Positions 712-35,530 of a stretch of 64,000 bases of DNA are shown here, piece by piece. A model generated the notes under the pieces. The model had not been told where the DNA came from. It saw only the letters and a list, made by a program, of their open reading frames with translations, and made no database searches. The position numbers were made by a program, and so were the translations under genes. The DNA is from Patescibacteria group bacterium (GTDB lineage: Bacteria; Patescibacteriota; Minisyncoccia; Phycocordibacterales; Zambryskibacteraceae). Position 1 is the stretch's first letter. Every line of letters starts with the position of its first letter. The DNA lies in the NCBI GenBank assembly GCA_004322205.1, contig SCSN01000009.1, forward strand, positions 29,836 through 93,835, given 5' to 3'.

Positions 712-2610
712 ATGGCAAAAATTGTTGGTATTGATCTTGGAACAACCAATTCGGCAATCGCGGTCATTGAACTGGGTAATCCGAAAATTGTAGAGAACGC
801 CGAAGGCGGGAGAATTACCCCGTCGGTAGTGGCCATTTCCAAGACAGGGGAGCGTTTGGTCGGACTCTTGGCGAAGCGGCAGGCGGTCACCAACCCGAGG
901 AATACCATTTTCGGCATCAAACGTTTTATCGGACATACCTTTGATGATCCGGGTGTCCAGAAAGACAAAGCCACTGTTCCTTTTGAGGTGCTCAAGGGTG
1001 GAGATGCCGGCGTTCAGGTCAAGATGGCCGACAAGCCCCATCGCCCGGAAGAAATTTCCGCCATGATTTTGCAGAAGTTGAAAAACGATGCCGAGACGAA
1101 GCTGGGCGAGAAGATTACCGAAGCTGTCATTACAGTTCCGGCATATTTCAACGATTCCCAACGTAAAGCCACCAAGGACGCGGGCGAGATTGCCGGTCTC
1201 AATGTCCGCCGCATTATTAACGAACCGACTGCCGCGGCTCTGGCCTACGGCTTTGATAAGAAAAAGAATGAGAAGATTGCAGTCTTCGACTTTGGCGGCG
1301 GAACTTTTGACATTTCAATTCTTGAGGTCGGTGATGACGTGGTGGAGGTCAAAGCAACCGACGGAGACAGCCATCTCGGCGGCCGCGATATTGATCAGAA
1401 GATTATTTACTGGCTTACCGATGAGTTTAAGAAGGAATCGGGAATTGATGTCCGCAAGGATCCGCTGGCTCTCCAACGCCTCGATGAAGGGGCAGAAAAG
1501 GCAAAAATCGAGCTTTCTACCGCTCTTGAAAGCGAGGTAAATATTCCCTTCATTACCTCCGACGCCAGTGGTCCTCGCCACCTTCTCATCAAGATGACTC
1601 GAGCCAAGCTCGAAGAGCTTGCCCGGGAATTTATCGATCGCGCCATTACCATCACCAAGCGCGCCTTCGAAGCTTCGCCCATAAAGACGGGTGAAATTGA
1701 CGAGATAATTTTGGTTGGCGGCCAGACCAGAATGCCGGCGCTCACTCAAGCAGTTAAGGAGCTTTTTAACAAAGAGCCGAACAAATCAATTAACCCCGAC
1801 GAGGTGGTGGCGCTGGGAGCGGCGGTGCAAGGCGGCATCATCGCCGGCGATGTCAAGGACATACTGCTCCTCGACGTCATTCCACTTTCACTTGGCATTG
1901 AAACTCTCGGCGGAGTGGCAACGAAAATTATTGATAGGAATACCACCATTCCGGCATCCAGAGCGCAAATCTTCTCGACGGCCACCGACAACCAAACCTT
2001 GGTTCAGGTCCATGTTGTTCAGGGAGAACGCTCAATGGTGGCGGATAACAAAAGCTTGGGTCAATTTATTCTCGACGGCATACCGCCGGCGCCGCGCGGC
2101 ATGCCGCAAATTGAAGTCAACTTTGACGTTGACGCCGACGGCATTCTCAATGTTACTGCCAAGGACAAGGCGACCGGCAAAGCCCAGTCTATTCGGATTG
2201 AGGCGAGCTCGGGCTTGACAGAGGCGGATATCGAGCGAATGAAGAAAGATGCAGAACTGCACGGCGAGGAAGACCGCAATAAAAAGGAGTTGGCGGAAGC
2301 CCGAAATCTTGCCGAGCAGCTTATCTATACTGCGGAAAAATCTCTCAAGGATGCTGCTGGCAAAATCCCGGCTGATCTCAAATCGGCGATTGAAACAAAG
2401 ATTGGCACTCTCAAAAAAGAAAAAGACTCCTTTGATCTGGGGGCGATCAAACGCGCCACTGAAGAGCTCTCGTCAGAGCTTCAAAAAATCGGTCCTTACA
2501 TCTCACCAGAGCAAACCGGCGGTCCAACTGCGGATTCAGAGAAAAAGAATAACATCAAGGATGCTGAATTTCGGGAGAAGAAAGACGACGAAGACCAAAC
2601 AAACAAATAA
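712..2610 (+). CDS. dnaK: Hsp70 chaperone DnaK
   Basis: N-terminus [14 protein letters not shown]; DLGGGTFD motif; 632 aa. Confidence 0.97.
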
Positions 2611-2680
2611 CAACTGACAACCAGTGACGGTCTTTGTTGTGGGTCGTAAGTTGTAAGTTGTGGGTCGCATAGTGTAAACT

Positions 2681-3763
2681 ATGCATATGGCGAAGGACTA
2701 CTACAAAGTTTTAGGAGTGTCAAAGGATGCTTCCAAGGAGGAAATCAAGAAAGCATTCCGCAAGCTTGCTCATGAATATCACCCCGACAAGCGAAGCGGC
2801 GACGCCGCTAAATTTAAAGAAGTTAGCGAAGCGTACAGTATACTCTCCGACGACCAGAAGCGCTCCCAGTACGACGCCTACGGCAGGGTTTTTGCCGGAG
2901 GTCAGACAGGAGGCGGTTTTGAGGGTTTTCAGGGCTTTGACTTCTCCCAGTTTGGCGGGGACAAAGGTTTTGAATTTGACCTCGGTGATATTTTCGGGGA
3001 TTTTTTCAGCTCTACTTTTGGCGGCAGAGGCGAGCGAACGCGGCGCGGCAGGGACATTTCCATTGACACCGAGCTTTCGTTTGAAGAGGCGGTGTTTGGA
3101 GTGGAACGCGTGATTGTACTCAATAAAGTTTCAACCTGCAGCGTCTGCGCCGGTAGCGGCGCGCGGCCCGGAAGCAGTATGGAGACCTGCCAAACCTGCA
3201 ACGGCAAGGGCACAGTTCGCGAGGTTCGCCGCTCTATTATCGGTTCGATTTCTACGGTTCACACCTGCGAGACCTGCGGCGGCAGAGGCAAGGTGCCGCG
3301 TGAACGCTGCGACAGCTGCCGCGGCAAAGGAGTAATCAGACGCGAACATGAGATCAAGGTGAAAGTTCCTGCCGGAGTAGAAGATGGAGAAATGATTCGC
3401 CTCGGGGGGATGGGGGAGTCGGTGGCAGGCGGCGTTGCCGGCGACCTTTACATTAAAATCCATGTCCGCAACCACTCTTATCTGCGGCGTGAGGGAAATA
3501 ATCTAATGATGGATCTTTCGGTGAAGCTAAGCGACGCCCTGCTTGGGGCGGAATACCCGGTTCAAGCGCTTGACGGTAAAATTACCGTCAAAATTCCCGA
3601 GGGTGTGGCGCCTGGGGAGATTTTGCGCGTGCGCGGCAAGGGCGTGCCGACGCAGAGCGGTAAACGCGGCGACCTGCTTATCAAGCTCATTATCAATCTT
3701 CCGAAAAAACTTTCAAAGGAGGCTAAAAAGCAAATTGAGCAGCTCAGAAAAGAAGGGGTATAG
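2681..3763 (+). CDS. dnaJ: DnaJ co-chaperone
   Basis: J domain (DYYKVLGV...HPDK), G/F-rich linker, four CxxCxGxG zinc-finger repeats. Confidence 0.95.
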
Positions 3764-23385: not shown

Positions 23386-23856
23386 TTACCTTGCATTTCC
23401 CCATACATTCCCATTGTTATCGTAGGTGTAGGGAGCATTGTAGATTTTGGTGACGGCATGAGGATTGGTGTAGCCGGCATCAGTATAGGTGTAATTCCCT
23501 TTGTCGCTCTTCCTTGTGATGTTCCCTATGGCATTGTATGTAATGTCATGTCTGAAGTTAGAGCCGTAGATTGCAACAGTTGAGGAAGCGATGATGAGCC
23601 TATTCAGATCATCGTAATACAAGTCCAGCGTCTTTTTGGAGTTTGTCCCCGATTGATCCACGATCTTTGTTATATTCCCCACCGCATCATATGTATAGGT
23701 GATGTCTTGCAACACATCAGAGGAAGAGGCGTTGACGTAGTTTATTTCCAAATACGGGTCAGACGATGTACCCGCTTGTTCGGAGCTGTACATGTGTATA
23801 CCGTGGAAAACAGTTGGAGTGGAGCTGGCGATGTCATGGTCGGCTTCTTCTGTCAC
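23386..23856 (-). pseudogene. orphan internal RHS/YD-repeat fragment
   Basis: 156-aa ORF about 90% identical to an internal segment (ADHDIASSTP...YTYDNNGN) of the giant RHS gene about 5 kb away; lacks both core ends. Confidence 0.75.
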
Positions 23857-24356
23857 AGCTTGATTTTATCAGGATTTTCGTATTTTTTTATCAAGATTAG
23901 AGTTTGCTCATCCAGTTCGATATTTGGATTGAGTTCTTTGAGGTGTTTAACAATTTTAGCACCAGTCTCTTCCGTAAATGATTCATTTGGTAGTTCGAGA
24001 TATTTCATTTTTCCATCTGAATCACTTATGATGTATAGTGATTTGTAAACGTCCCCAAAGCTTTTATCTAGGTTAAAAGTAGGCTGTCTTGAGATCCGTT
24101 TAATATGCTCTATATTAATACATTTCTTAATTACGAAGCAGTCAACCTTGCAGGCCGATTTATTGCCAACTGATAAATATATACCAGAAAAAGCGTTCAA
24201 AATTAATAAGAGACAAGCTAGAGCAAGACCAATTACGGTTGAGTTATAAAAGTTTCTCCCTGAAAGGAAAAAGGCTAATAGAAAACCACTCCCTAAGAGC
24301 ACTGCGATTGAGCCAGCCCATTTTTTACTTGTTCTGTATTTTATCTCCTTCATCAA
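23853..24356 (-). CDS. candidate RHS immunity protein (paralog of 25327..25800)
   Basis: 167 aa; N-terminal TM helix and C-terminal VKHLKELNPNIELDE motif shared with the second immunity ORF; 4-nt overlap with the upstream orphan CT module. Confidence 0.5.
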   Translation of the reverse strand: MMKEIKYRTSKKWAGSIAVLLGSGFLLAFFLSGRNFYNSTVIGLALACLLLILNAFSGIYLSVGNKSACKVDCFVIKKCINIEHIKRISRQPTFNLDKSFGDVYKSLYIISDSDGKMKYLELPNESFTEETGAKIVKHLKELNPNIELDEQTLILIKKYENPDKIKL

Positions 24357-25219
24357 TTTCCACCAAACGCATTCCTAAATCTAATCAATTTCTGCTGTTG
24401 TCGATAGGCTGCCTGTTGTATTGCGGTAATATATTGTTGGAGCGACATACCTGAACCTCCCGAACCACCTCTTAGAGATTGCAGTGCACCCCGTGCTATA
24501 AAACCAGTACCGGCTCTGAAGACACCCTGTACTGTGGTGTATTGAATCTGCCTCGTCCATAAATCTGAACTTATTCCTTCTGGTTTTTTTAACAGGACAC
24601 CCTTAACAGGAGCTTGACCTACTCCAAACTTGAAAAGACCTCGCGCAACCATTGAGTTTGCAGCAGACACAGACGCTTTTTCAAAGTCTAGCGGTTCCTT
24701 GCCGGCAAGATCTTGAACGAGTGATCCTACACCAGAGGATAAGCCAGATGAAACAATCGATGTTCCAAAAAATCTCCCTCCTCCAGCCGCGAAGAGTTGA
24801 GCCACTATATACTCGCCCGGAGAGGAGCTAGGTAAATACTGATCAATACCACTAACATTATTCGTTCTATTCTCCATAATATCCACCGCCCACTTTGCAA
24901 GGGAAGCGACACCTGCACCGATTATCGGTACAGCATACGGCATCAAGGGACACAACACGACAAAACACAACCCTTGTGGATCCTTGTACACATAAGGGCT
25001 ATTGTTGGCATAGCTGTAGCTGTTTAAGACTTGTGGATCAGAAAGTAATTTCTTTAGGTCTTGGTTTGAGAGTTTTGTGGCTTCAGGTGAGCCCAACCAT
25101 ACGAATATAGGATCTTGTGAGGCAAACCTCCCAATACGGCCGTCATAGTAGCGTGCATTGAGACATGAGAGAGCTGTATCATCATCGTATTCCTGTCCAA
25201 TGTATTTTATGAGTAGCTT
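24353..25219 (-). pseudogene. orphan RHS C-terminal toxin cassette (5'-truncated, no start codon)
   Basis: Reading frame open from 25219 (stop at 25220..25222); begins inside the last RHS repeat (YIGQEYDDDTALS...YYDGRIGRFASQDP), has the DPQGL boundary, then a Cys-rich hydrophobic CT domain. Confidence 0.65.
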
Positions 25220-25326: not shown

Positions 25327-25800
25327 CTAGATTTTAGCAGAACTTTCGTACTTCTGTATTAGATTCTCTGCATTTTCGTCTAATTCTATTTTCGGATTGA
25401 GTTCTTTGAGGTGCTTTACTACTTTGACAATAGTCTTTTGTGTGAACCCAATATTCGGCATCTCAATATATTTACTTTTATGATCAATCTCACTAGCAAC
25501 ATAAAGTGATCTTGCACTTCTTCCAATGATAAAGGTTGGTGTGTATGATATTTTCTGAATTGAATTGATTTCCAAACATCTTTTTAGAATAAAACTATCA
25601 GTACGGCAAATGGTTCTATCGCTGATATGCACATAGGTACCAAGGAAATTATCAAGTGCGATAAATATTAATAAAACAAAAACAAGTAGTATAATTGGCT
25701 CAATTCCTTCTGAAATTTGTCTTAATATAGCCGGAAAAATGCCGATTAGTAGTAGGACAGCTATCATCCCAGCCCAGGCTTTATCAGTTCTGTATCTCAT
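25327..25800 (-). CDS. candidate RHS immunity protein
   Basis: 157 aa; TM N-terminus and VKHLKELNPKIELDE motif; start overlaps the stop of orphan CT-1. Confidence 0.5.
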   Translation of the reverse strand: MRYRTDKAWAGMIAVLLLIGIFPAILRQISEGIEPIILLVFVLLIFIALDNFLGTYVHISDRTICRTDSFILKRCLEINSIQKISYTPTFIIGRSARSLYVASEIDHKSKYIEMPNIGFTQKTIVKVVKHLKELNPKIELDENAENLIQKYESSAKI

Positions 25801-26906
25801 GGCTTCTTTGAGTTAAAACTAGCAATGAGACTCCTCAGGGCTGATATGAATTGATTCATATTAAACGGCCTCCCATTTACCTGTCCTGAACCTTGAGCTG
25901 CCGGCCTACTTGAACCGCCAGAGGAGCGTCGTAATTCCTGGGCCCCCATACCCGGAAGTGTTTGCAGGGCCTCTTGCCCAACCGCATATCTAGCACCTTT
26001 ATCCAGAAGTGATGATGATGTTTTCTTGAATAAATTTGGCAATCCTTCTTCTGCCAATTCATCAAATGGTGATTGTCCAGCTGCAGATTTGAAGAGTTTT
26101 CCACCTATCCCCGCAGAAACTCCGGTTAGTACAGCTTTAATTGGATCAATAGGTCTTCCCCCAGCATAATCTTGAATTACCGAGCCTGCGGCCGCTATTA
26201 CTCCCGAGGTCACAGCTTTTGTTCCAATTTGCACTGCGGATGCAGCACCGAAACTTACACTGGTTACGTATTCAGAAAACGAAGACCTTGGCGCAAACTG
26301 TTGCCAACCCACAACACTCGCAGCTTGATTTTCCCTAATATCAGAATACCAAGTACTGTAAAACGCTACTGTCCCCCCTATTAAAGCCAGGATACAAGCA
26401 GGGCACAAGCCATTCGGATCTTTGTTAACAATAGGGTTATTATCCGCATATGCATAGCTATTCAATGTCTGTGGATTTGAGAGAAAGAATGATTGATCCT
26501 GTCCGGTTAATTTCTTTAATCCCTGAGAATATCCAATCGCCAAGAAACTCGGATCCTGACTCACAAACCTCCCAATACGTCCATCATAGTATCTGGCATT
26601 GAGGTATGAGAGTGCGGTTTCAGTGTCATACTCCTGCCCTATGTATTTCCTTGATTCATTGTATGTTGTTTGTTTCTGATCTGTTCGGAGTTCACCGAAG
26701 GGGAAGTAGTCAATGAGTTCACTCACTGTGCTACTTGCGTCTGTAATTACCGTTGAACCTTGAAGGTGGTCAGTGTGCACGTAGTATGTACTCGTTCCTG
26801 TATTTGTTCCTCGTACTGAAGCTAGGAGGGTATTGTTAGCGTAAACGTGGTGGTCTCTCGTACTAGAATAATTAGTCATAAATAGTGCCTGACCCCATAA
26901 TCCCAT
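25797..26906 (-). CDS. orphan RHS C-terminal module (last YD repeats + DPNGL + CT domain)
   Basis: N-terminal about 150 aa are roughly 85-90% identical to the 3' core of the giant RHS gene (YYVHTDHLQGSTVITDASST...YYDGRIGRF); then DPNGL followed by the divergent CT CPACILALIGG... Confidence 0.7.
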   Translation of the reverse strand: MGLWGQALFMTNYSSTRDHHVYANNTLLASVRGTNTGTSTYYVHTDHLQGSTVITDASSTVSELIDYFPFGELRTDQKQTTYNESRKYIGQEYDTETALSYLNARYYDGRIGRFVSQDPSFLAIGYSQGLKKLTGQDQSFFLSNPQTLNSYAYADNNPIVNKDPNGLCPACILALIGGTVAFYSTWYSDIRENQAASVVGWQQFAPRSSFSEYVTSVSFGAASAVQIGTKAVTSGVIAAAGSVIQDYAGGRPIDPIKAVLTGVSAGIGGKLFKSAAGQSPFDELAEEGLPNLFKKTSSSLLDKGARYAVGQEALQTLPGMGAQELRRSSGGSSRPAAQGSGQVNGRPFNMNQFISALRSLIASFNSKKP

Positions 26907-26966: not shown

Positions 26967-27410
26967 TCAAACACTTTGAATATCGGGGTTAGCATCTATG
27001 AGAGATTTGGGTGCACGATAATAATACCAGTTTTTTTCTCGCGTTAAATTATGTTTTTGTTCGTGCGCCAACCCACAAATATTTTCTTTTATTTTTATGG
27101 TTTTTTCTTCGAAGAGTGAATCTGGTAAAACAAGTTTTTTTTCAACTTCTTTTTGTTCTTCTGAACTTAATTCGGTAAGAACAATGTCAATCGCACTTCT
27201 AACATCAAGATTGTTAGTATACTCATATATATCATCTTCCATTTCTACATCTTCCGTTATTTTTTCCCATCTGGGAATTAAATAGTTTAAGCCGTCCTTA
27301 ACTATAAAGTCGGCGTAACCTTCTAATCTTTTTTTTATTTTTTCTGTATGCGGGTAGGGCATAATTTGTATCTGACTTATAACTGGTTTTGAATTAATTG
27401 CTTCTCCCAA
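26967..27410 (-). CDS. candidate cognate immunity protein of the main RHS toxin
   Basis: 147-aa acidic ORF whose start overlaps the RHS stop by 17 nt (27394..27410). Confidence 0.45.
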   Translation of the reverse strand: MGEAINSKPVISQIQIMPYPHTEKIKKRLEGYADFIVKDGLNYLIPRWEKITEDVEMEDDIYEYTNNLDVRSAIDIVLTELSSEEQKEVEKKLVLPDSLFEEKTIKIKENICGLAHEQKHNLTREKNWYYYRAPKSLIDANPDIQSV

Positions 27411-30400
27411 ATCGCCGAGAAAACCTTGCGGCTGCTTGTTGCAACCTAATAACTTGCGCCTGTAACGAAGACACGTCAGAAGCAGAGAGACTTAATCCGT
27501 TGCTCCAACCAGAATATGAAGCTCCACTTGAAGGTTTGAAGTATGTATGCATTGTGACACCCCCAGTATTTTGATTCATGCTGAAAGACGCGAAGGAATT
27601 TGTTCTCGTGTCATAAGTGTTAATTCTTCCTCTGGTTTTATCAAACCTAAGTGGATACTTACCACTAATAGCATCTGTAACAAACTCACGAGCTGATTCT
27701 ACATACTCTTTTGTATTTGTTGTTCCAAAGTCAGCAGCATGATCTGCCGCGTGTTTTGTAGCATTTGCAGCGCGATTCGCCATAGATCCTTTGCTCCAAA
27801 CGCCTTCAAAATTAATATTTGGCTTCGGCGAATTTGGCACTGGTCTAGCACCGACGGTTGCGAGTGGCGCAGCATCAAAGTAAATCTGTGGTTGACTAGC
27901 CGCTGCATATGCTTCTGGTTCGTACACAGGATCTGGAGATAGGGGACGAGGCATAAACAGTAACATTCCAATAATCCCCCATGGTGTAGGTGGAACTTCT
28001 AATCCCTGTGGATCCTTGTTTACAATTGGGTTATTATTTGCATAAGCATAACTATTCATTTGCTGGGGATTGGAGAGAAATATTTCTAAGTTTTGAGTGC
28101 TTAATCGTTCAAGGAGCGAAGAACCAATTTCTAAAAACACCGGATCCTGACTGGCAAACCTCCCAATACGACCGTCATAGTATCTGACATTGAGGTAAGA
28201 CAATGCGGTCTCTGTATCATACTCCTGCCCTATGTATTTCCTTGATTCATTGTACGTTGTTTGCTTCTGGTCTGTTCGGAGTTCTCCAAAGGGAAAGTAG
28301 TCAATGAGCTCATTTAGAGTTGATGAGGCGTCGGTAATAACTGTAGAGCCTTGGAGGTGGTCGGTGTGAACGTAATAAGTGGAGGTGCTTGTCGTACTGG
28401 ATCGAATGGAAGCCAGTAACATTCCGTTGCTGTAAATATGCTTGTCTCGTGTAGTGGTGGCTGATACGTCATAGTACATGTTGGGGTAGTAGGTGGCGGT
28501 AGTTCCCACCTGATACTTGACTCTAGCTCCAGCATGATCGTAGGCCATCTGCATCGTACTCGTCGCCTTCGTTATCTTTGTAATCCAATTGTTGTAATTC
28601 CAAGTACTTGTCGCTATCCCCCCTATCCCCAGCATATTCCCATTGTTGTCGTAGGTATAGGGAGCGTTCCAGACTTTGGTAACAGCCTGGGGGTTAATGT
28701 AGCCAGAATCAGTGTAGGTGTAATTCCCTTTGTCGCTCTTCCTCGTAATGTTCCCTATGGCATTGTACATCACATCATGTCTGAAATTGCTCCCGTAGAT
28801 GGCAACAGAGCTTGAAGCAATCACCAATCTATTCAAGTCATCATAGTAGAGATCCAGTGTCTTTTTCGAATTTGTGCCTGATTGATCCACAATTTTGGTT
28901 ATATTCCCCACCGCATCGTAGGTGTAAGTGATGTCTTGCAACACATCAGAGGAAGAGGCGTTGACGTAGTTTATTTCCAAATACGGGTCAGACGATGTAC
29001 CCGCTTGTTCAGAGCTGTACATGTGGATGCCGTGGAAGCCGGGTGGAGTGGAGCTGGCGATGTCATGGTCGGCTTCACGGATGGCGATGAGGGTGGTGGA
29101 GGTGGGAGAAATCCAGCTTGTTCCGGTGGCATTGAGGTACCATTTGTTGTAGCCAATGAGAAAGTCAGCGCTGTTTTTTCTTGTTGCTCCCTCATCGGGG
29201 TTATTGATAGTCATTCTGGAATAATCGGAATTTTGTAGGAGTGTGGTAGAGGCTTGGTTGCTTTTAACAATTGCCATATTACCTCCATCTTGCTTGGCGT
29301 AGACATAGATATTAAGAGATGCAGATGTAACAGTAGCGTTTGAGCCAAGAGAGGAAGTGTCAAAAACGTAGAACTGACGAGAATTACCAAGATAATAGCC
29401 AAAATCAGTATATGCTCTGGCCGTCCCTTGATATGAATCCCCTCCATAGTAATTGGCAGATGTTGTAGCTCGAATATATGACCAAGGGCGACATGCACAA
29501 GCATCGCCGCCATATGCGGAATCGTCGATAAATGCCAAGCCGCCGTCTCCAGAGCCTGAATATGGGCTAAGGGTGAGATCGGTGCGGACCGGAAAGACTG
29601 TCGTTTTGAAGTAAGAGGCCGGGAGAATCTTGGTAACTTGAATGTTTGTACCTATTTTCTCGTAACGAATTGAGATGGGCCGTAAATGCGCTCGATTGGC
29701 GTCAGAATCATCTATGTACGGGGCGCGAATATACGAAACTCCTCCGCGGTCATCAATGATTTTTGCAGGATTGGCGGAAACAATTGTTCCGGCTTGGCTT
29801 AATCTTTTACCTTCTACCTCAATGTCCAAATCGCCTGAACTGGTGATTTCAAATAGTATTTCGTAGTCAGTGCCCGTGGCGAAGGTTTGGAGCGTCTGAC
29901 TATTTGCAATCACAAACTCTTTGGTAAGTGATACATCACCAAGCGACACTACCATGTCGGCGCCGGACCCCAGATAATTTTTATATGTAACTCTCTTCCC
30001 TGCCCACATGGGATCGGTCAATTCCTTTTGGACCGTAGCCGATGAAGTTGCCGCCTGCGGGAATGTAAGTGAGAGTATTTGACCACCGTTTTCAAAAGTG
30101 ATGGGAGAGTTTGTCGGCGATTTATCAAGTGTCGCTTTATACGGAGCCTTGTACATAAGCCAATTGTTTTGGCCGTCAATGAGGATAGTGTCTATCTCCG
30201 AAAGATTTCCTGCGCTGTCCCGATAGAAGATGTCGCCGGAGTAAAACTGCCCTTGGCGGATTTCATTGCCTTGGGGGTCAAAACCTATGAGGTAAGTCTT
30301 GCTTCTGGAAGTTCGCAGGTCATCTTTTTCAAACGGTTGATTGAGTATATAGTTCCCGTTTTCATCCACGACAGACTGCTCCGCCCGCAGATAGTCCTCC

Positions 30401-33400
30401 ATACTTGCATAACCCATAAATCCCTCTCCGCCAGTTCCGCCCACTTTAGTTGTGATTTTTTTCTGAAGGCGATAGAGTTCATCGGGGTTGTAGACGAAGT
30501 AGCTCTCCGTATTGTTGGCGTAGTAAATATATGAAGGTTGGCCAGTCGGAGCATAGTCAATGTCTGAAACCACATCCGTAAAGCCGCCGCCGGCAGTTTC
30601 TTTCTTCTCAACTTTCTCAACCTGTCCGCCGTTGTTGTACGTGTAGCGAGACTCAAAGAGGTCGGGATAGACGATGTTTACGATATTTCCCTGCCTGTCG
30701 TAGGCGTAGGTAGTTGTTAGATTATTGGAATTTATCTTTTTCAGTTCTGTTACCACACGGCCGAGGGGATCATAGGTATAGACTGTATTTGCTCCAGTGC
30801 TTGTGGCCGCACAGAGTTGCCCCTTGCCGTTGGTACAGCCGTCGTAGCTGTACGTTACCTCTACTCCGGTCAGTCCTGTGAAGTCTTCCGTCAGAACTCT
30901 GTTAATTCCGTCGTACGTAAAATTAACTTTCTGGTTTTTCTGATCATAGCGCTGGACAAGATTACCTGCGTTGTCGTAGACATAAGTTGTTGAAGCAAAC
31001 GTGGAGTCAGCGGATGCGTGGAGATCCTCTGCTTTTGTACGCCTGCCGAGGCCGTCGTAGGTGAAGTTGCGGACGTTTCCGAGCGCGTCGGTGATTTTCG
31101 TCAGATTTCCGAGCCCATTATAGAGATAGTTGGTCGTGTAGGTGGACGTCGCGTTAATCTCATCTACCTTTGTGAGGTTGTCATACGCGTCTTTGTATAG
31201 CTTCTTTTGCTTGCTGCGGGCATCGGTAACAGTCAGCACCCAATCGTCATAGGCGTTAGTAGTACTCCCCACTGCATTTGTAATCTTTGTCACTCTTTCC
31301 AGCGGGTCATAGGTATAACTGATCTCGAGCTTCGAGGCGGTTGAGGTGGAAGAGCGGCTCGAGCCTTGGGCAAAGTACGGCAGAGTTTCTTTATCAAGAA
31401 GGCCGATGTTGTTGTAAGTATATTCCTTTACAACAAATTCGCTCGTATTCTCCGCCTCTTTTCTCTCTTGGAGAATGCGGTTGAAGCCATCAAGGTATGA
31501 GTAGGTATCTACGATGTTGGAACTATCCAGGTAGTCACTTCTTTTTACAACTGTCGGAACCGTATTGTCCGTATAAGTGAAGGTTGTTTTTGTCTCAAGG
31601 GTGGAAGAGGTTGAAGTGCTTGGCTGTTTTTCTTCTGTCACACGATCGAGGCCGTCATAGGTTGTTTGGAAAACGAAATTATTGGGATCAGTAAATTGTT
31701 TTACCTTGCCAGAGGAGTAGTCATATTGGTATCCAAAGTTTTGGCTTACTGCGTTTGTTGTTGTTGCCGGGTAAAGATTGTTCGCATCATATACGTAGGT
31801 AGTGTTGTTCCCCCTTGGGTCAGTATCGGTAGTGACTAAGCCGTAGCTATTGTATGCCTTTGTGGATGAGGCGTAAGCCGAGCCAGTTTTCCAGAGTTCC
31901 TGCTTGGTAAGATTTCCTTTATCGACATTGCCGTAAGAGAGGGTGTCGTAATAGAGCTTTGTTTCTTTGACTTTATTTGAGCTCTGGTCAAACATTCCCT
32001 CTTGGGACAGGAGATTCACTGAAACGGAGCTGGTGGCGGAGCTTGTGGCGTAGGTGTAGTTAAAGGTGAACTTGTCTGTGCCCGCATCTGTAAATGTCCC
32101 GTCATCGCTTGCAGTTACTTCACCCCAGAGAGTCTTTTGAGAGAGATTGCCGGCGCTGTCGTCATAGACATAGCTTTCGGCCTTGTGTTTGGAATCAGCA
32201 TCACCGTCCTGCGCCCAGTCAATAGTCTGCGTAAGCTTTACATAGTGGCGATCGTTCGCTAACCCGACATTCTCCCACTTGTTAATCTTTTTAGAGTAGA
32301 TGTTGTTCGACGCGTCAGTGATTTCAGTCCTATAGGTTTTACCGATTTTCGAGACGTGATCACTAAATTCGCCGAGAGATGAATCTGTGGTGTTTCCTTG
32401 GTGGTAATATGTTTTAACTTTGGTTCCAGCATCGTTACTCCTCGTGGTACTGGCAAATCCAGCTAGACGTCTGTCACGGCCAGTGTTGAAATAGAATCGC
32501 CCATCGGAATAGGTGTAGCTAACTGCTTCAGTATTGTTGACTCCGTTGCTCTTGGTGATTTGGGAAACTGTGTCAAGAATAATCGGAAGCTTGGGATTAA
32601 GAAGGTTTCCTCCGGATGCTGTATACAGCGGAGTTTGTTTGTAGGTAATATCGTGAGTGGCTCCTTTATCTGTAACAATTTTTATTAGTTGATCCGTTCG
32701 CGAAGGATTGGCGAGACGAATAGTATTTTGCGTTGAGTTGGCACTCCAGTATATCGACTGCAAGATATCGGGTATGGCATCCCCGTCAACATCGGCCATG
32801 CGCACCCCCTCGTCTTGATCAAAACCATTTGCAAAGTCTACGGGCGGGTCCCAAGAAGGATCGGTTATCTCTACCCACTGTTTCCCGGTATTTTTAGAAG
32901 TGCCGCGGAGGGTAAGCGGCGGATTACCGTTATAGACGTAGGAGGAAATCATATCCGTCAAGTTGTCGCCGTTGACATCGGCATAACGCACTCTCATGGA
33001 AACCGATGCGGTGTAGCCAGTCTGGCTTTTCCAGCCATTGCCTGTATTCATGTGAGTTGTAGTGGAAGTGAGAAAATCATAAAGCCCGTCTGCATTGACA
33101 TCCAAAAGCTGAATATCATCGGTTATCCCATCCGTGGCAAAGGACATGGGGTTTTTCCAGCTGGCTGATTCCGTCCAACCGGCGCCGTTATTCATATATA
33201 TTTTGTTGAATTGCTGGGTGCTGGTCGCATGAGAATAGAGAATATCTACGAGGCCATCGCCGTTTACATCACCTAAACGAACCCCATTGTCTTTCTCGGC
33301 GGCAATAAAGTATTCCGGCGGCTGCCACGTTGAACTTTCAGACCAACCAGAGCCAGTGTTTAAATATGTTTTCTTTGTAGTCGAACCACTGCCTGCATCA

Positions 33401-34995
33401 ATTGCCCAGAGAACATCGATGAGAAGATCCCCGTTTACGTCTGCAAGTCTCACGCCATCGTCTTTCCCATCTTTCACAAAGTGCACTGGGAATTGCCAGC
33501 TTGAATCGTAACTCCAAGTGAGGTTGCCTCTATTATTGAGATAAATTTTTTGAGTAGAGGATGCAGAACCTTCGAGCTCTGACCAAATGAAATCGGCGAG
33601 CGCGTCCCCATTTACGTCTGCCATACGCAAACCTTTGTCGGTGCGCGAGGTTCCGTCCTTGATAAACCACATCGGAATGGTGCCGGAGGCGGCAGGATTC
33701 GGATCCCACCCATTAGCAGTCAAGGTATTTCCATAAGTAAAGGAGGTCTGCGGAAGAGTGATTTCCGTCCCCAAATCATCCTTGCCAGTTTCCACAATGC
33801 CTCCCAGCAGTTTTCTTTCTCCGTTTTCAGCCAAGGCAGAATTGAAGGTGTATTTTCTAACCCAAGAACCGTTAACTTTGGCTTGCACTTCGTTTATGAA
33901 ATACTTGGTAACAACTTCAAAGGCGGGCCGGCTTGAGGTGGCGTAGCCGGCAGCGCCGCGATTCTGGCGGAAGAATTCAAGCTCGAAGATACCGTCTGTT
34001 ACTCCGTTGCCGGTGTATTTGATTTTTGAGGGGTAAATGTATCCTGCTCCTTTGTAATACTCGTATTTTATGTAGTTATCATTTCTGTCTCGCACTTCCT
34101 CAAGCATCCAGCGATAGATCTTCGTTCCATCAGATGGATCATCCATTCTTGTGCTAGTGGAGTAGCCGAATTTGTATTGTGTCCCGCTTTTGTCTGTTAC
34201 AAGCCACGTATTACTAGAAAAGGTATATGCCCTGAACGCCCCATTTTCGTACTTCGCTCCGTAAGCCGTAGTTGTAGTAGAGGTTGTGGCAAGTTCCCCG
34301 TCAAAGGAAGAGGTAAAATAAGTTGAAGAATATAGATTGTCGGAGCCGGTGCGATTGAGACGCTCAATGTACGGAATATCCAAGTTCCAGCCGTAGCCGA
34401 ACCAGTTTACGTCGTCTGCCGTTTGATTGTTGTAGTAGAGGGTGGCGCTTGGAGTCAGACCGTTTCTGCCGGGCGACACAGTCAGTTTGTATTGATAATT
34501 GAACGAACCTGCATAGGAATCCAGTGTGAAAGCGATTCGCAGTTCTTCGTCTTTGCTCCGATCCCTAATCGGCAAATCAGAAGACTCGCCGAGAAGCGAC
34601 AAGATACCAGCTTCCCCTTCTCCAGCGGGCTCTTCATCTGTTTTCTGCTGGGGCGCTCCGTTCTGGTTTGTCTGCTCGCCCGCGACCTCGCCGGGCGGAG
34701 TACTGGGGTTGCCTGCGGCTTGCCCCGCCGATTCATTTTGATTTGCTTCTGTCGGCTTGTTCCCCGATATCCCGGGAGTAACAGAAAATTCAACATCAGC
34801 CGGACTCTCAACAGGGATATTTTGAAGAGCACCGCCGACATTCGGAGTATTCGGCTCTTGGTTCAGAGTCGCCGTCTCTTCCTGCGCGGAAACAAAGAGC
34901 GGCTGGAGGAAAAAAGAAAATACTAACGTCAAAGACGTTAGTATTTTCAAGCACTGCCGCACCTTGAGAAAATCAAAAGTACGCCTCGCCCTCAT
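27394..34995 (-). CDS. giant secreted RHS/Tc-toxin BC-like polymorphic toxin
   Basis: 2533 aa; signal peptide; Pro/Gln/Gly-rich linker; SpvB-like GYGWNLDIPYIERL segment; six or more DVNGD(G)xxD FG-GAP/VCBS-like repeats; tens of YD repeats; PIVNKDPQGLE core boundary; then an about 200-aa unique C-terminal domain. Confidence 0.9.
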   Translation of the reverse strand: MRARRTFDFLKVRQCLKILTSLTLVFSFFLQPLFVSAQEETATLNQEPNTPNVGGALQNIPVESPADVEFSVTPGISGNKPTEANQNESAGQAAGNPSTPPGEVAGEQTNQNGAPQQKTDEEPAGEGEAGILSLLGESSDLPIRDRSKDEELRIAFTLDSYAGSFNYQYKLTVSPGRNGLTPSATLYYNNQTADDVNWFGYGWNLDIPYIERLNRTGSDNLYSSTYFTSSFDGELATTSTTTTAYGAKYENGAFRAYTFSSNTWLVTDKSGTQYKFGYSTSTRMDDPSDGTKIYRWMLEEVRDRNDNYIKYEYYKGAGYIYPSKIKYTGNGVTDGIFELEFFRQNRGAAGYATSSRPAFEVVTKYFINEVQAKVNGSWVRKYTFNSALAENGERKLLGGIVETGKDDLGTEITLPQTSFTYGNTLTANGWDPNPAASGTIPMWFIKDGTSRTDKGLRMADVNGDALADFIWSELEGSASSTQKIYLNNRGNLTWSYDSSWQFPVHFVKDGKDDGVRLADVNGDLLIDVLWAIDAGSGSTTKKTYLNTGSGWSESSTWQPPEYFIAAEKDNGVRLGDVNGDGLVDILYSHATSTQQFNKIYMNNGAGWTESASWKNPMSFATDGITDDIQLLDVNADGLYDFLTSTTTHMNTGNGWKSQTGYTASVSMRVRYADVNGDNLTDMISSYVYNGNPPLTLRGTSKNTGKQWVEITDPSWDPPVDFANGFDQDEGVRMADVDGDAIPDILQSIYWSANSTQNTIRLANPSRTDQLIKIVTDKGATHDITYKQTPLYTASGGNLLNPKLPIILDTVSQITKSNGVNNTEAVSYTYSDGRFYFNTGRDRRLAGFASTTRSNDAGTKVKTYYHQGNTTDSSLGEFSDHVSKIGKTYRTEITDASNNIYSKKINKWENVGLANDRHYVKLTQTIDWAQDGDADSKHKAESYVYDDSAGNLSQKTLWGEVTASDDGTFTDAGTDKFTFNYTYATSSATSSVSVNLLSQEGMFDQSSNKVKETKLYYDTLSYGNVDKGNLTKQELWKTGSAYASSTKAYNSYGLVTTDTDPRGNNTTYVYDANNLYPATTTNAVSQNFGYQYDYSSGKVKQFTDPNNFVFQTTYDGLDRVTEEKQPSTSTSSTLETKTTFTYTDNTVPTVVKRSDYLDSSNIVDTYSYLDGFNRILQERKEAENTSEFVVKEYTYNNIGLLDKETLPYFAQGSSRSSTSTASKLEISYTYDPLERVTKITNAVGSTTNAYDDWVLTVTDARSKQKKLYKDAYDNLTKVDEINATSTYTTNYLYNGLGNLTKITDALGNVRNFTYDGLGRRTKAEDLHASADSTFASTTYVYDNAGNLVQRYDQKNQKVNFTYDGINRVLTEDFTGLTGVEVTYSYDGCTNGKGQLCAATSTGANTVYTYDPLGRVVTELKKINSNNLTTTYAYDRQGNIVNIVYPDLFESRYTYNNGGQVEKVEKKETAGGGFTDVVSDIDYAPTGQPSYIYYANNTESYFVYNPDELYRLQKKITTKVGGTGGEGFMGYASMEDYLRAEQSVVDENGNYILNQPFEKDDLRTSRSKTYLIGFDPQGNEIRQGQFYSGDIFYRDSAGNLSEIDTILIDGQNNWLMYKAPYKATLDKSPTNSPITFENGGQILSLTFPQAATSSATVQKELTDPMWAGKRVTYKNYLGSGADMVVSLGDVSLTKEFVIANSQTLQTFATGTDYEILFEITSSGDLDIEVEGKRLSQAGTIVSANPAKIIDDRGGVSYIRAPYIDDSDANRAHLRPISIRYEKIGTNIQVTKILPASYFKTTVFPVRTDLTLSPYSGSGDGGLAFIDDSAYGGDACACRPWSYIRATTSANYYGGDSYQGTARAYTDFGYYLGNSRQFYVFDTSSLGSNATVTSASLNIYVYAKQDGGNMAIVKSNQASTTLLQNSDYSRMTINNPDEGATRKNSADFLIGYNKWYLNATGTSWISPTSTTLIAIREADHDIASSTPPGFHGIHMYSSEQAGTSSDPYLEINYVNASSSDVLQDITYTYDAVGNITKIVDQSGTNSKKTLDLYYDDLNRLVIASSSVAIYGSNFRHDVMYNAIGNITRKSDKGNYTYTDSGYINPQAVTKVWNAPYTYDNNGNMLGIGGIATSTWNYNNWITKITKATSTMQMAYDHAGARVKYQVGTTATYYPNMYYDVSATTTRDKHIYSNGMLLASIRSSTTSTSTYYVHTDHLQGSTVITDASSTLNELIDYFPFGELRTDQKQTTYNESRKYIGQEYDTETALSYLNVRYYDGRIGRFASQDPVFLEIGSSLLERLSTQNLEIFLSNPQQMNSYAYANNNPIVNKDPQGLEVPPTPWGIIGMLLFMPRPLSPDPVYEPEAYAAASQPQIYFDAAPLATVGARPVPNSPKPNINFEGVWSKGSMANRAANATKHAADHAADFGTTNTKEYVESAREFVTDAISGKYPLRFDKTRGRINTYDTRTNSFASFSMNQNTGGVTMHTYFKPSSGASYSGWSNGLSLSASDVSSLQAQVIRLQQAAARFSRRFGRSN

Positions 34996-35101: not shown

Positions 35102-35530
35102 TTACTTACGGGCTATTTCGTTAAACTTCGCCCAGCAGGGAGATGACGAGAGCCACGGTCTGGTACCTTCCCTCTCGTAGAGATACCGCGCGTAAGCGAG
35201 ATTCCCCCCCAGAGAGTGGATGTCAAAGCCGAGACGCTCCGCCCTCTCGAGATGATAGAGTTCGTTAATCTGCATCACCCCGACGTCAAAGCGGTTGACT
35301 TTACCGCGATGAATTTCCCCGTTGACACCAGTCTGGCGAAAATGCGACTCGCAGCGAGCGATTTCAACCATAATCGGCAGATCGGAGAAGTACTCGACTA
35401 CTTTTTCTTTGGTGGTCGGCGGCTTCACCTCGGAGACCGCAGTCTCCTCGATGGGCGGGGCCGCCGCGGGATTTTCTAACATCGCAGCCGGGGCGCCCAG
35501 ATAGCTGAAGCCGGAAATGACAGCAAGCAA
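35102..35530 (-). CDS. Rpf/lytic-transglycosylase-like domain protein with N-terminal signal/anchor
   Basis: CESHF...DVGVMQIN...PW..SSPCW motifs resemble the transglycosylase-like (Rpf) fold. Confidence 0.45.
   Translation of the reverse strand: MLAVISGFSYLGAPAAMLENPAAAPPIEETAVSEVKPPTTKEKVVEYFSDLPIMVEIARCESHFRQTGVNGEIHRGKVNRFDVGVMQINELYHLERAERLGFDIHSLGGNLAYARYLYEREGTRPWLSSSPCWAKFNEIARK

What the first reader, a model, noticed from the sequence alone, without database searches (positions are those of the whole stretch)
27394..27998. Main RHS C-terminal toxin domain of unknown family, with translationally coupled immunity ORF
After ...NNNPIVNKDPQGLE the protein switches to a non-repetitive about 200-aa domain (PPTPWGIIGMLLF...KHAADHAADFGTTNTKEYVESAREFV...). 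I cannot assign it to any known toxin fold. The next ORF (26967..27410, 147 aa, acidic) starts 17 nt before the RHS stop, which is the classic toxin/immunity coupling.
Basis: partly seen in the sequence, partly recalled or inferred. Interest (0 to 1): 0.6.

Follow-up and report, generated by a model that had tools for sequence, protein, structure and literature searches.

The report
Colicin-D-like RNase toxin on Rhs
The tail of this giant Rhs protein from a Patescibacteria genome is a colicin-D-like RNase toxin from a widespread family whose structure is already solved (PDB 8EY4). It is followed by a small acidic protector protein of a rare, unnamed family, making this an ordinary bacterial toxin/antidote pair with one modest twist.

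Summary
The ORFs are as described: a 2533-aa Sec-signal/SpvB/FG-GAP/RHS protein (27394..34995, minus strand) ends in DPQGL followed by a roughly 200-aa non-repetitive tail, with a small acidic ORF directly downstream.

The tail is not an orphan fold. Pfam and NCBIfam have no model for it. An exhaustive search found 200 cluster representatives, almost all with the domain at the C-terminus of RHS, MafB, CdiA/DUF637, WXG100-like or phage-portal proteins. A family profile hits PDB 8EY4 chain A (CDI toxin, E. coli O32:H37) at E=6e-26. A high-confidence AlphaFold model (pLDDT 90) matches 8EY4, then the colicin D tRNase, then RelE/HigB. [quoted passage not shown] The conserved His/His/Asp/Thr/Lys residues are all present.

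The family's usual immunity partner is a Cys_rich_CPCC protein (8EY4 chain I, E. coli pO113, three Patescibacteria-type relatives). The window instead carries an unrelated acidic 131-aa protein. Its only detected homologues sit directly downstream of this same toxin domain in three other distinct loci, plus one orphan copy.

The homologues place its start at the ATG at 27362, 31 nt after the RHS stop. The claimed 17-nt overlap is therefore probably an ORF-extension artefact.

Verdict: a new member of a known kind, of modest interest.

The parts
27394..34995 (-). Main Rhs polymorphic-toxin gene (2533 aa). Domain order: Sec-type signal peptide, SpvB, FG-GAP propeller, RHS/YD shell, DPQGL motif, C-terminal toxin.
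   Evidence: ORF. Pfam RHS_repeat 4.7e-28, SpvB 2.3e-12, FG-GAP_3 2.6e-10.
34885..34995 (-). Predicted Sec signal peptide (MRARRTFDFLKVRQCLKILTSLTLVFSFFLQPLFVSA|QEE).
   Evidence: Read from the sequence: basic n-region, hydrophobic h-region, VSA-Q site. No predictor was run.
28000..28014 (-). DPQGL motif that ends the Rhs core, residues 2328-2332. This is the predicted autoproteolytic release site of the toxin tip.
   Evidence: Sequence. The equivalent core ends of the two orphan copies match TIGR03696 Rhs_assc_core. Cleavage is inferred from established Rhs/TcC biology.
27823..27999 (-). 59-aa linker after DPQGL: a short hydrophobic stretch (PWGIIGMLLFM), then a Pro-rich segment.
   Evidence: It differs from the ~70-aa hydrophobic module (YAPQITSFLQSLATPxGQ...) shared by the closest relatives.
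27487..27822 (-). BECR-fold (colicin-like) RNase toxin core, residues 2392-2503 (core numbering 1-112).
   Evidence: 200 relatives by exhaustive phmmer. Profile vs PDB 8EY4_A E=8e-23 and 6e-26. AlphaFold2 pLDDT 90.4 with pre-alpha + alpha + four strands. Foldseek ranks 8EY4 first, then colicin D, then RelE/HigB.
27727..27774 (-). Pre-alpha helix carrying the predicted catalytic residues H2415 (core H24), H2419 (H28) and D2422 (D31), followed by F32.
   Evidence: H24 in 147/150 relatives, H28 in 148/150, D/E31 in 142/150, F32 in 148/150. Helix 17-32 in the model. The Hxx[ED] motif of Tox-ColD is from PMC3482391.
27532..27558 (-). Strand beta-4 plus the K-P turn: H2483 (core 92), T2484 (T93), K2487 (K96), P2488.
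   Evidence: T93 in 142/150, K/R96 in 131/150, P97 in 147/150. Position 92 is R/K in 124/150 but His here. Strand 89-95 in the model.
27397..27486 (-). Basic helical tail (core residues 113-142, pI 12), absent from most relatives. Role unknown.
   Evidence: Helix 114-138 at pLDDT about 80. pI. Only a few relatives align this far (P0030, P0104, P0143).
26967..27362 (-). Predicted cognate immunity gene: 131 aa from ATG 27362, pI 4.95. It belongs to an unnamed acidic family, called 'type II' here.
   Evidence: Homologues lie 1-3 nt downstream of the same toxin domain in L005, L008/L009/L016/L017 and L012/L014/L015, with an orphan copy in L013. No Pfam, NCBIfam or PDB sequence match. NCBI calls the 131-aa product.
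27363..27410 (-). In-frame 5' extension up to TTG 27410, which produced the apparent 17-nt overlap. Probably not translated.
25797..26906 (-). Orphan Rhs fragment 1 (369 aa): a core-end fragment plus a different, Gly/Ala-rich hydrophobic C-terminal domain.
   Evidence: TIGR03696 4e-18. A 195-nt stretch is 86% identical to the main gene's core end.
25327..25800 (-). Membrane ORF (157 aa) overlapping orphan 1's end by 4 nt. Putative immunity for orphan 1.
   Evidence: 42% identical to the ORF after orphan 2.
24353..25096 (-). Orphan Rhs fragment 2 (247 aa), with a C-terminal domain paralogous to that of orphan 1.
   Evidence: 41% identity over 156 aa. Core-like DNA extends upstream to 25103..25207.
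23853..24356 (-). Membrane ORF (167 aa) overlapping orphan 2's end by 4 nt. Putative immunity for orphan 2.
23386..23856 (-). Terminal Rhs-repeat remnant with no toxin tip.
   Evidence: RHS_repeat 2.6e-5. 300 nt are 80% identical to 28636..28935.

Best explanation
The region encodes the exchangeable toxin tip of a Sec-secreted Rhs polymorphic toxin of a Patescibacteria (CPR) bacterium, together with its immunity gene.

[quoted passage not shown] The RNase is homologous to the CdiA-CT toxin crystallised as PDB 8EY4.

Proposed mechanism (inferred unless marked otherwise):
1. The protein is exported by Sec.
2. The SpvB/FG-GAP/RHS part forms a TcB/TcC-like shell around the tip.
3. The tip is cut free after DPQGL.
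4. Once inside a neighbouring cell, the RNase cleaves an essential RNA and arrests translation. The target is most likely a tRNA, as for colicin D and other colicin-like BECR toxins. Catalysis would use H2419 (with D2422) and H2415 on the pre-alpha helix, and T2484/K2487 on and just after strand beta-4, leaving a 2',3'-cyclic phosphate.
5. The producer and its kin are protected by the acidic 131-aa protein encoded 31 nt downstream. It is presumed to bind the basic toxin core (pI 9.4) 1:1 and block the RNA-binding face.

Shown here: family membership, fold, conserved residues, and the conserved toxin/ORF gene pairing.

Inferred: RNase activity, tRNA target, cleavage at DPQGL, delivery route, and the way the immunity protein inhibits.
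For: - Architecture.
- Family size and position: 200 cluster representatives at E<=1e-3, and the aligned domain ends within 30 residues of the C-terminus in 136 of the 150 listed proteins, which range from 83 to 3155 aa.
- Carriers: the same domain is fused to RHS, WXG100-like, MafB, DUF637/RHS and phage-portal proteins, and it occurs on 47 plasmid records.
- Homology to a solved CDI toxin: single sequence vs 8EY4_A E=9e-4; profiles E=8e-23 and 6e-26 over the whole 88-residue chain.
- Fold: AF2 model pLDDT 90.4, pTM 0.80, topology pre-alpha/alpha/beta1-4. Foldseek gives 8EY4_A (TM 0.79, rmsd 2.2, 31% id), then the colicin D tRNase entries 1TFK/1V74/1TFO/5ZNM (prob 0.85-0.90), then HigB/RelE/YoeB/ParE. 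This is the 'Colicin-like' topology, with active-site residues on pre-alpha and beta-4, as described in bioRxiv 10.64898/2026.08.28.747851.
- Catalytic signature: H24, H28, D31, F32, Y40, T93, K96, P97 and Y103 are each conserved in 124-148 of 150 relatives and all are present here. H28xxD31 and T93xxK96 fit the Hxx[ED] and [TS]xxK motifs of Tox-ColD in PMC3482391.
- Immunity: the homologous ORF directly follows this toxin domain in three other distinct loci, with toxins 39-47% and ORFs 28-33% identical to the window's. The ORF is acidic and the toxin core basic. The immunity gene is AT-rich (GC 0.35-0.37) next to a core of 0.43-0.50, as expected for a swapped-in module.
Against: - No biochemical data exist for this protein. 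I also found no paper describing the activity or target of the 8EY4 toxin, so RNase activity rests on fold and motif analogy.
- There is no sequence-level link to colicin D: no Pfam Colicin_D hit, and colicin D is absent from the profile-vs-PDB results.
- The basic residue at core position 92 (R/K in 124/150 relatives) is His here, which might alter activity.
- The family's usual immunity partner (Cys_rich_CPCC) is missing from the window.
- No direct evidence shows that the 131-aa protein binds the toxin.
- The delivery route in a CPR bacterium is unknown. No T6SS or TcA-like gene was noticed in the flanking genes examined, though 36-64 kb was listed only as ORF coordinates.
Confidence: 0.78

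Rival explanations
1. The toxin is an RNase of this family, but its target is not tRNA. It could be rRNA or mRNA on the ribosome, as with RelE/HigB or the sarcin-ricin-loop cleaver SRLase1, or it could degrade RNA non-specifically.
For: The Foldseek list also contains the ribosome-dependent mRNases HigB/RelE/YoeB. BECR and BECR-like toxins are known to hit different RNAs. The target of the 8EY4 toxin is unpublished as far as I could find.
Against: The nearest characterised structural neighbour after 8EY4 is the colicin D tRNase. The 2026 preprint states that characterised colicin-like members predominantly target tRNAs.
Confidence: 0.25
2. The 131-aa ORF is not the immunity protein but an accessory factor such as a chaperone or adaptor. 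Under this view the window toxin is either unprotected or protected by something elsewhere, because the family's true immunity is the Cys-rich CPCC/Zn-ribbon type.
For: CPCC proteins are the partner in the 8EY4 crystal (chain I), in E. coli pO113 and in L002, L004 and L010. In L005 a Cys-rich Zn-ribbon ORF follows the type-II ORF.
Against: In the window, L008 and L012 no Cys-rich ORF follows. A small home-made CPCC HMM found none in six-frame ORFs of the 64-kb window or those loci, although it also missed the divergent L005 Zn-ribbon ORF. The type-II ORF occupies exactly the immunity slot (1-3 nt gaps) and is acidic. It also occurs as a stand-alone orphan gene (L013), which is typical of immunity genes. 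Swapping of immunity families on one toxin family is common in polymorphic toxin systems (PMC3482391).
Confidence: 0.12
3. The tip is a decayed or inactive relic, or a structural domain, rather than a working effector.
For: It has an unusual His at core position 92, an atypical Pro-rich linker and an extra basic tail not seen in most relatives.
Against: The reading frame is intact across 2533 aa, all near-invariant family residues are retained, the model is confident and the partner ORF is intact and conserved.
Confidence: 0.07

Closest known systems
CdiA-CT/CdiI complex of E. coli O32:H37 (PDB 8EY4; immunity alone 8EY3)
   Same: Homologous toxin domain: profile E=6e-26 over the full chain, 31% identity, TM 0.79, rmsd 2.2 A. 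It shares the H...H..[DE]F...Y...RTxFKP...Y signature. It is the C-terminal tip of a large secreted polymorphic toxin, followed by a small immunity gene.
   Different: - Carrier: a type V CdiA filament (PT-VENN) in a diderm there, a Sec/SpvB/FG-GAP/RHS protein in a CPR bacterium here.
- Immunity: a ~65-70-aa Cys_rich_CPCC protein there, an unrelated acidic 131-aa protein here.
- The window toxin also has a 30-aa basic tail, and His instead of Arg at core position 92.
Colicin D tRNase domain with ImmD (PDB 1V74, 1TFK, 1TFO, 5ZNM; Tox-ColD of Zhang et al. 2012)
   Same: Next-best structural match (Foldseek prob 0.85-0.90, TM about 0.5). Same pre-alpha + alpha + 4-strand 'Colicin-like' BECR topology. 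Comparable motif layout of Hxx[DE] on the N-terminal helix and [ST]xxK at the last strand. An acidic immunity protein blocks a basic RNase.
   Different: No detectable sequence homology: no Pfam Colicin_D hit and no profile hit. About 18% identity in the structural alignment. The family here has two conserved His four residues apart, rather than KK..H. The immunity protein was not shown to be related to ImmD.
Ntox35 clade of predicted BECR toxins (Zhang et al. 2012, PMC3482391)
   Same: Described as having two conserved N-terminal histidines ('H, KH') plus the conserved S/T on the C-terminal strand, and as occurring on MafB-N and RHS proteins across many phyla. That description fits this family.
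   Different: No Pfam Ntox model matched any of the 28 family members scanned, even at permissive thresholds. Identity with Ntox35 could therefore not be established.
Rhs/WapA-type polymorphic toxins with orphan toxin/immunity arrays, and TcB/TcC cocoons
   Same: RHS shell, DPxGL core end, variable C-terminal toxin, adjacent immunity gene, and downstream orphan modules sharing core-end DNA. The SpvB + FG-GAP + RHS order is that of TcB-TcC. This comparison rests on established knowledge, not on a test run here.
   Different: The host is a Patescibacteria MAG with no T6SS, PAAR/VgrG or TcA-like gene noticed in the flanking genes examined. Export is apparently by a Sec signal peptide, and the entry route into targets is unknown.

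Membership tests
Rhs polymorphic toxin (main gene plus orphan array) | RHS/YD repeats forming the shell | tested here: met
   Pfam RHS_repeat 4.7e-28.
Rhs polymorphic toxin (main gene plus orphan array) | Conserved core end (Rhs_assc_core, ...DPxGL) followed by a variable C-terminal domain | tested here: met
   DPQGL at residues 2328-2332. TIGR03696 was scored only on the orphan copies (4e-18 and 0.0024). The main gene's core end is 86% identical in DNA to orphan 1.
Rhs polymorphic toxin (main gene plus orphan array) | Small immunity gene immediately downstream of the toxin tip | tested here: met
   A 131-aa ORF starts 31 nt after the stop, and the pairing is conserved in three other loci. Protective function was not tested.
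Rhs polymorphic toxin (main gene plus orphan array) | Autoproteolytic release of the tip | not testable with these tools
   Only the motif is seen.
8EY4-type CdiA-CT toxin domain family (no Pfam model; JGI labels many members 'pyocin large subunit-like') | Significant sequence/profile match to the crystallised toxin chain | tested here: met
   phmmer E=9e-4. Profile E=8e-23 and 6e-26, full-length.
8EY4-type CdiA-CT toxin domain family (no Pfam model; JGI labels many members 'pyocin large subunit-like') | Same fold | tested here: met
   AF2 pLDDT 90.4. Foldseek top hit 8ey4_A, TM 0.79, rmsd 2.2.
8EY4-type CdiA-CT toxin domain family (no Pfam model; JGI labels many members 'pyocin large subunit-like') | Near-invariant residues H24, H28, D/E31, F32, Y40, T93, K96, P97, Y103 | tested here: met
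   All are present. The only deviation is H at position 92, where 124/150 relatives have R/K.
8EY4-type CdiA-CT toxin domain family (no Pfam model; JGI labels many members 'pyocin large subunit-like') | Cys_rich_CPCC (PF14206) immunity partner | tested here: not met
   The window ORF has no CPCC, Pfam or PDB match, and no CPCC ORF was found in the window. CPCC is the partner in 8EY4_I, pO113, L002, L004 and L010.
Canonical BECR fold, Colicin-like group | Topology pre-alpha + alpha + beta1-beta4, with conserved residues on pre-alpha and beta-4 | tested here: met
   Model elements H17-32, H37-52, E58-61, E66-71, E76-82, E89-95. Definition. Conserved residues map to 24-32 and 92-97.
Canonical BECR fold, Colicin-like group | Metal-independent RNase activity | not testable with these tools
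   Inferred from fold and motifs only.
Colicin D / Tox-ColD (Pfam Colicin_D) | Match to the family's sequence model | tested here: not met
   No Pfam hit for the window domain or for the other family members scanned. Colicin D is absent from the profile-vs-PDB hits.
Colicin D / Tox-ColD (Pfam Colicin_D) | Signature [KH]K, Hxx[ED], [ST], [TS]xxK | tested here: inconclusive
   H24 (at the [KH] spacing, -4 from H28), H28xxD31 and T93xxK96 fit, but the second K is F/A here. The equivalence was not verified by superposition.
Colicin D / Tox-ColD (Pfam Colicin_D) | ImmD/Imm64 immunity partner | not tested
   The window ORF matched no Pfam family or PDB chain. ImmD and Imm64 were not compared directly.
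Ntox35 (Zhang et al. 2012) | Two N-terminal His ('H, KH') plus S/T on the last strand; MafB-N and RHS carriers | tested here: inconclusive
   The verbal description fits, but no Pfam Ntox model matched. The type sequence NGMG_00731 was not available for comparison.

The most novel reading that the evidence does not exclude
The acidic ~130-aa 'type II' protein may be a previously undescribed immunity fold. In one Patescibacteria-type lineage of Rhs toxins it would have displaced the ancestral CPCC zinc-ribbon immunity of this RNase family. A second possibility is that these cell-wall-attached episymbionts use a Sec-exported, self-contained TcB/TcC-like Rhs cocoon to inject a tRNase into hosts or rivals without any T6SS or TcA partner.
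Probability: 0.3. Interest if true: 0.5.

Novelty: new member of a known kind. Interest (0 to 1): 0.3.

Why it matters
The analysis replaces an 'unknown toxin fold' with a concrete, testable assignment: a colicin-D-like RNase with named catalytic residues. That assignment comes from linking the domain to a solved but apparently unpublished structure (8EY4).

It also shows that a large polymorphic-toxin domain family (at least 200 clusters at 50% identity) still lacks a Pfam or NCBIfam model. The family occurs on Rhs, CdiA, MafB, WXG100-like and phage-portal carriers.

The family pairs with at least two unrelated immunity families: CPCC and a new acidic one. For CPR/Patescibacteria biology, this adds an example of contact- or secretion-based antagonism in tiny-genome bacteria.

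None of this overturns current understanding of Rhs systems.

Tried and rejected
- Pfam and NCBIfam scans of the tip, the ORF and the orphan modules gave no meaningful hits.
- The word-indexed homologue search with the tip found nothing, and with the ORF it found only itself.
- Single-sequence AlphaFold gave a useless model at pLDDT 49.
- Searches of genome and metagenome contigs with a 2-sequence immunity alignment found nothing. Only the 4-sequence alignment worked.
A 3-sequence version returned only the already known Parcubacteria contig.
- The viral fold library gave one marginal hit, A0A9E7CKV2 at E=2e-3.
- Literature searches for 8EY4, O32:H37 and CPCC as an immunity protein found nothing.
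- A colicin D plasmid record could not be fetched for a direct residue alignment.
- The promoter/terminator scan was no better than shuffled sequence.
- MafB2-CT (RNase A-like) and SRLase1 (BECR-like superfamily) were considered and set aside as different families.
- The idea that the 147-aa TTG start is real was rejected on homologue N-termini.
Full report
**1. What is there**

The minus strand carries a 2533-aa ORF at 27394..34995. It has:
- a basic/hydrophobic N-terminus ending VSA|QEE, read as a Sec signal peptide from the sequence;
- Pfam SpvB, FG-GAP and RHS_repeat domains;
- a core end ...YAYANNNPIVNKDPQGL at residues 2328-2332;
- a 201-aa non-repetitive tail at 27397..27999.

Downstream on the same strand lie, in order:
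- a small acidic ORF (26967..27410 if read from the first TTG);
- two truncated Rhs core-end fragments, each with a different tail (25797..26906 and 24353..25096), and each overlapped by 4 nt by a membrane-protein ORF;
- a final Rhs remnant (23386..23856).

The orphans share 73-86% identical DNA with the 3' core of the main gene. This is the standard main-plus-orphan Rhs array. The immunity ORF matches NCBI protein EPN83_02215 from a 'Patescibacteria group bacterium' MAG. The genes examined on either side of the array are housekeeping genes, with no T6SS or TcA-like gene noticed; the 36-64 kb part was listed only as ORF coordinates.

**2. The tail is not of unknown family**

Pfam and NCBIfam gave nothing, and the word-indexed search was empty. 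A direct phmmer against PDB sequences gave one borderline hit, 8EY4 chain A, 'PT-VENN domain-containing protein' (E=9e-4).

The exhaustive phmmer against 1.84 billion cluster representatives found 200 proteins at E<=1e-3, seven of them at E<=1e-10. In 136 of the 150 listed, the aligned domain ends within 30 residues of the C-terminus, and the proteins range from 83 to 3155 aa. Carriers include RHS proteins, a WXG100-like protein, a MafB protein, a DUF637/RHS protein and a phage portal protein. The domain occurs on 47 plasmid records from Escherichia, Salmonella, Clostridium, Paenibacillus and other genera. JGI labels many members 'pyocin large subunit-like protein'. One paper lists the corresponding COG5529 as the CT domain of a P. 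aeruginosa CdiA (PMC4725963).

Profiles of 22 and 59 family members hit the entire 88-residue 8EY4_A chain at E=8e-23 and 6e-26.

**3. Fold**

With the 59-sequence alignment, AlphaFold2 gave pLDDT 90.4 and pTM 0.80. The secondary structure is helix 17-32, helix 37-52, four strands between residues 58 and 95, and a further helix 114-138. The single-sequence model had been useless.

Foldseek against the PDB ranked the hits as follows:
- 8EY4_A, 'Contact-dependent growth inhibition toxin-immunity protein complex from E. coli O32:H37' (TM 0.79, rmsd 2.2 A, 31% identity);
- the colicin D tRNase domain (1TFK, 1V74, 1TFO, 5ZNM; probability 0.85-0.90);
- HigB, RelE, YoeB and ParE toxins.

This is the BECR fold. 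The pre-alpha + alpha + beta1-4 order is the 'Colicin-like' group of a 2026 classification. That work places the active site on the pre-alpha helix and beta-4, and notes that characterised members mostly cut tRNAs (bioRxiv 10.64898/2026.08.28.747851).

**4. Active site**

Conservation across 150 relatives:

| Core position | Residue | Conserved in |
|---|---|---|
| 24 | H | 147 |
| 28 | H | 148 |
| 31 | D/E | 142 |
| 32 | F | 148 |
| 40 | Y | 148 |
| 93 | T | 142 |
| 96 | K/R | 131 |
| 97 | P | 147 |
| 103 | Y | 146 |

The window protein keeps all of them. In full-length numbering they include H2415, H2419, D2422, T2484 and K2487.

H28xxD31 and T93xxK96 fit the Hxx[ED] and [TS]xxK elements of the Tox-ColD signature. 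In colicin D, K607, K608, H611, D614 and S677 are essential (PMC3482391). I could not superpose coordinates, so these equivalences are inferred.

The same paper's verbal description of Ntox35 also fits: two N-terminal His plus S/T on the last strand, on MafB and RHS carriers. No Pfam Ntox or Colicin_D model matched any member, even at permissive thresholds, so the formal family name stays open.

One deviation stands out. Core position 92 is R/K in 124 of 150 relatives but His in the window.

**5. The downstream ORF**

The 147-aa reading starts at a TTG that is simply the first start codon after the preceding stop. The sequence shows the RHS stop TAA at 27394-27396 and an in-frame ATG at 27362, with no clear Shine-Dalgarno before either start.

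To test the immunity idea I looked at what follows the closest toxin relatives.

| Toxin relative | Locus | Gene directly downstream |
|---|---|---|
| P0007 | L005, Candidatus Parcubacteria MAG | Homologue of the window ORF, 127-132 aa, pI 4.5-5.0, 1-3 nt gap |
| P0003 | L008/L009 | Homologue of the window ORF, same properties |
| P0024 | L012 | Homologue of the window ORF, same properties |
| P0002 | L002 | Cys_rich_CPCC (PF14206) protein |
| P0012 | L004 | Cys_rich_CPCC (PF14206) protein |
| P0006 | L010 | Cys_rich_CPCC (PF14206) protein |
| P0008 | L003 | Other Cys-rich Zn-ribbon protein |

The window-type homologues are 28-33% identical to the window ORF and align from their Met1 to the window's ATG.

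A metagenome scan with the 4-sequence alignment found five loci. Four were further copies of the L008 and L012 loci, again directly after the toxin domain. The fifth (L013) has a 45%-identical gene with no toxin upstream, that is, an orphan immunity-like gene. The family has no Pfam, NCBIfam or PDB sequence match.

The conserved pairing is good comparative evidence that this is the cognate immunity protein. So are its acidity against a basic toxin core (pI 9.4) and its low GC (0.35-0.37). The most likely start is ATG 27362, 31 nt after the RHS stop.

**6. The family's canonical immunity**

The CPCC protein from L004 matches 8EY4 chain I and 8EY3 at E=5e-13 and 1e-12. Both are annotated 'Cys_rich_CPCC domain-containing protein'. 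On E. coli plasmid pO113 the toxin-domain match is followed 3 nt later by an annotated 'CPCC family cysteine-rich protein'.

The toxin/CPCC pairing therefore spans E. coli CDI systems and Patescibacteria-type Rhs proteins. The window and three related loci have exchanged CPCC for an unrelated acidic protein. L005 retains a Cys-rich Zn-ribbon ORF one gene further on. Immunity swapping of this kind is normal for polymorphic toxins. It is the only modestly new element here.

**7. Mechanism and confidence**

I commit to a Sec-exported Rhs cocoon that releases, after DPQGL, a colicin-D-like metal-independent RNase. The RNase most likely cuts tRNA and is neutralised in the producer by the 131-aa acidic protein.

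Shown:
- homology and fold;
- conserved residues;
- conserved gene pairing.

Inferred:
- catalysis and target;
- cleavage at DPQGL;
- delivery route;
- mode of inhibition.

I found no publication on the activity of the 8EY4 toxin.

**8. Verdict**

The 'unknown family' label is superseded. This is a new member of a known kind, paired with a rare unnamed immunity family. Interest is modest at 0.3.

Noticed in passing
window 25797..26906 / 25327..25800 and 24353..25096 / 23853..24356 (minus strand): The two orphan modules are paralogues of each other. Their tails are 41% identical, Gly/Ala-rich and hydrophobic, with no Pfam hit. Their downstream ORFs are 42% identical, have hydrophobic N-terminal segments and overlap the toxin stop by 4 nt. 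They look like a membrane-acting toxin with a membrane-embedded immunity protein, unrelated to the main tip.
   Followed up: partly
window 23386..23856 (minus strand): A terminal Rhs-repeat remnant without a toxin tip, 80% identical over 300 nt to 28636..28935 of the main gene. It overlaps the end of the last immunity ORF and abuts VKOR/DsbA-like genes. It is probably a recombination scar marking the end of the array.
   Followed up: partly
window 27544..27549 (core positions 92-93; residues H2483, T2484): The basic residue before the conserved Thr on strand beta-4 is R or K in 124 of 150 relatives but His in the window toxin. The effect on activity or specificity is unknown.
   Followed up: no
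window 27397..27486 (minus strand): A 30-aa strongly basic (pI 12) helical tail follows the RNase core and is missing from most relatives. Only a few distant members (P0030, P0104, P0143) align that far.
   Followed up: no
window 27823..27999, compared with P0002/P0004/P0007/P0008/P0003: The closest relatives share a ~70-aa hydrophobic module after DPxG (…YAPQITSFLQSLATPxGQ…NGNYGMAxxG…). This could be a membrane-entry segment. The window keeps only a short hydrophobic stretch and replaces the rest with a Pro-rich linker.
   Followed up: partly
L005 1612..1962; L003 10134..10544; L013 560..970: L005 has a Cys-rich Zn-ribbon ORF after its type-II immunity gene, related to the ORF after the L003 toxin (E=2e-5). 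Neither scores as CPCC in Pfam. L013 carries a type-II immunity homologue (45% identical to the window's) with no toxin upstream, that is, an orphan immunity gene.
   Followed up: partly
P0085 (662 aa); BFVD A0A9E7CKV2; L018 (E. coli pO113) 2501..2943: The same RNase domain is fused to a phage portal protein, and there is one marginal viral structural match. On pO113 the toxin-domain match has no feature listed in PLSDB's (incomplete) gene table. It is followed by an annotated CPCC gene and a transposase, with subA at the edge of the fetched stretch.
   Followed up: no
window 35102..35530 (minus strand): The small ORF just upstream of the Rhs gene has lytic-transglycosylase-like motifs (…CES…, GVMQIN, AYxxY) but no Pfam hit at E<=1e-3. 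If real, it could help the large Rhs protein cross the cell wall.
   Followed up: no
window 27394..34995: The word-indexed 5.8-billion-protein search did not return the Rhs protein itself when queried with its own tip, although the neighbouring immunity protein is in that collection. The full-length product may not be on record there.
   Followed up: no
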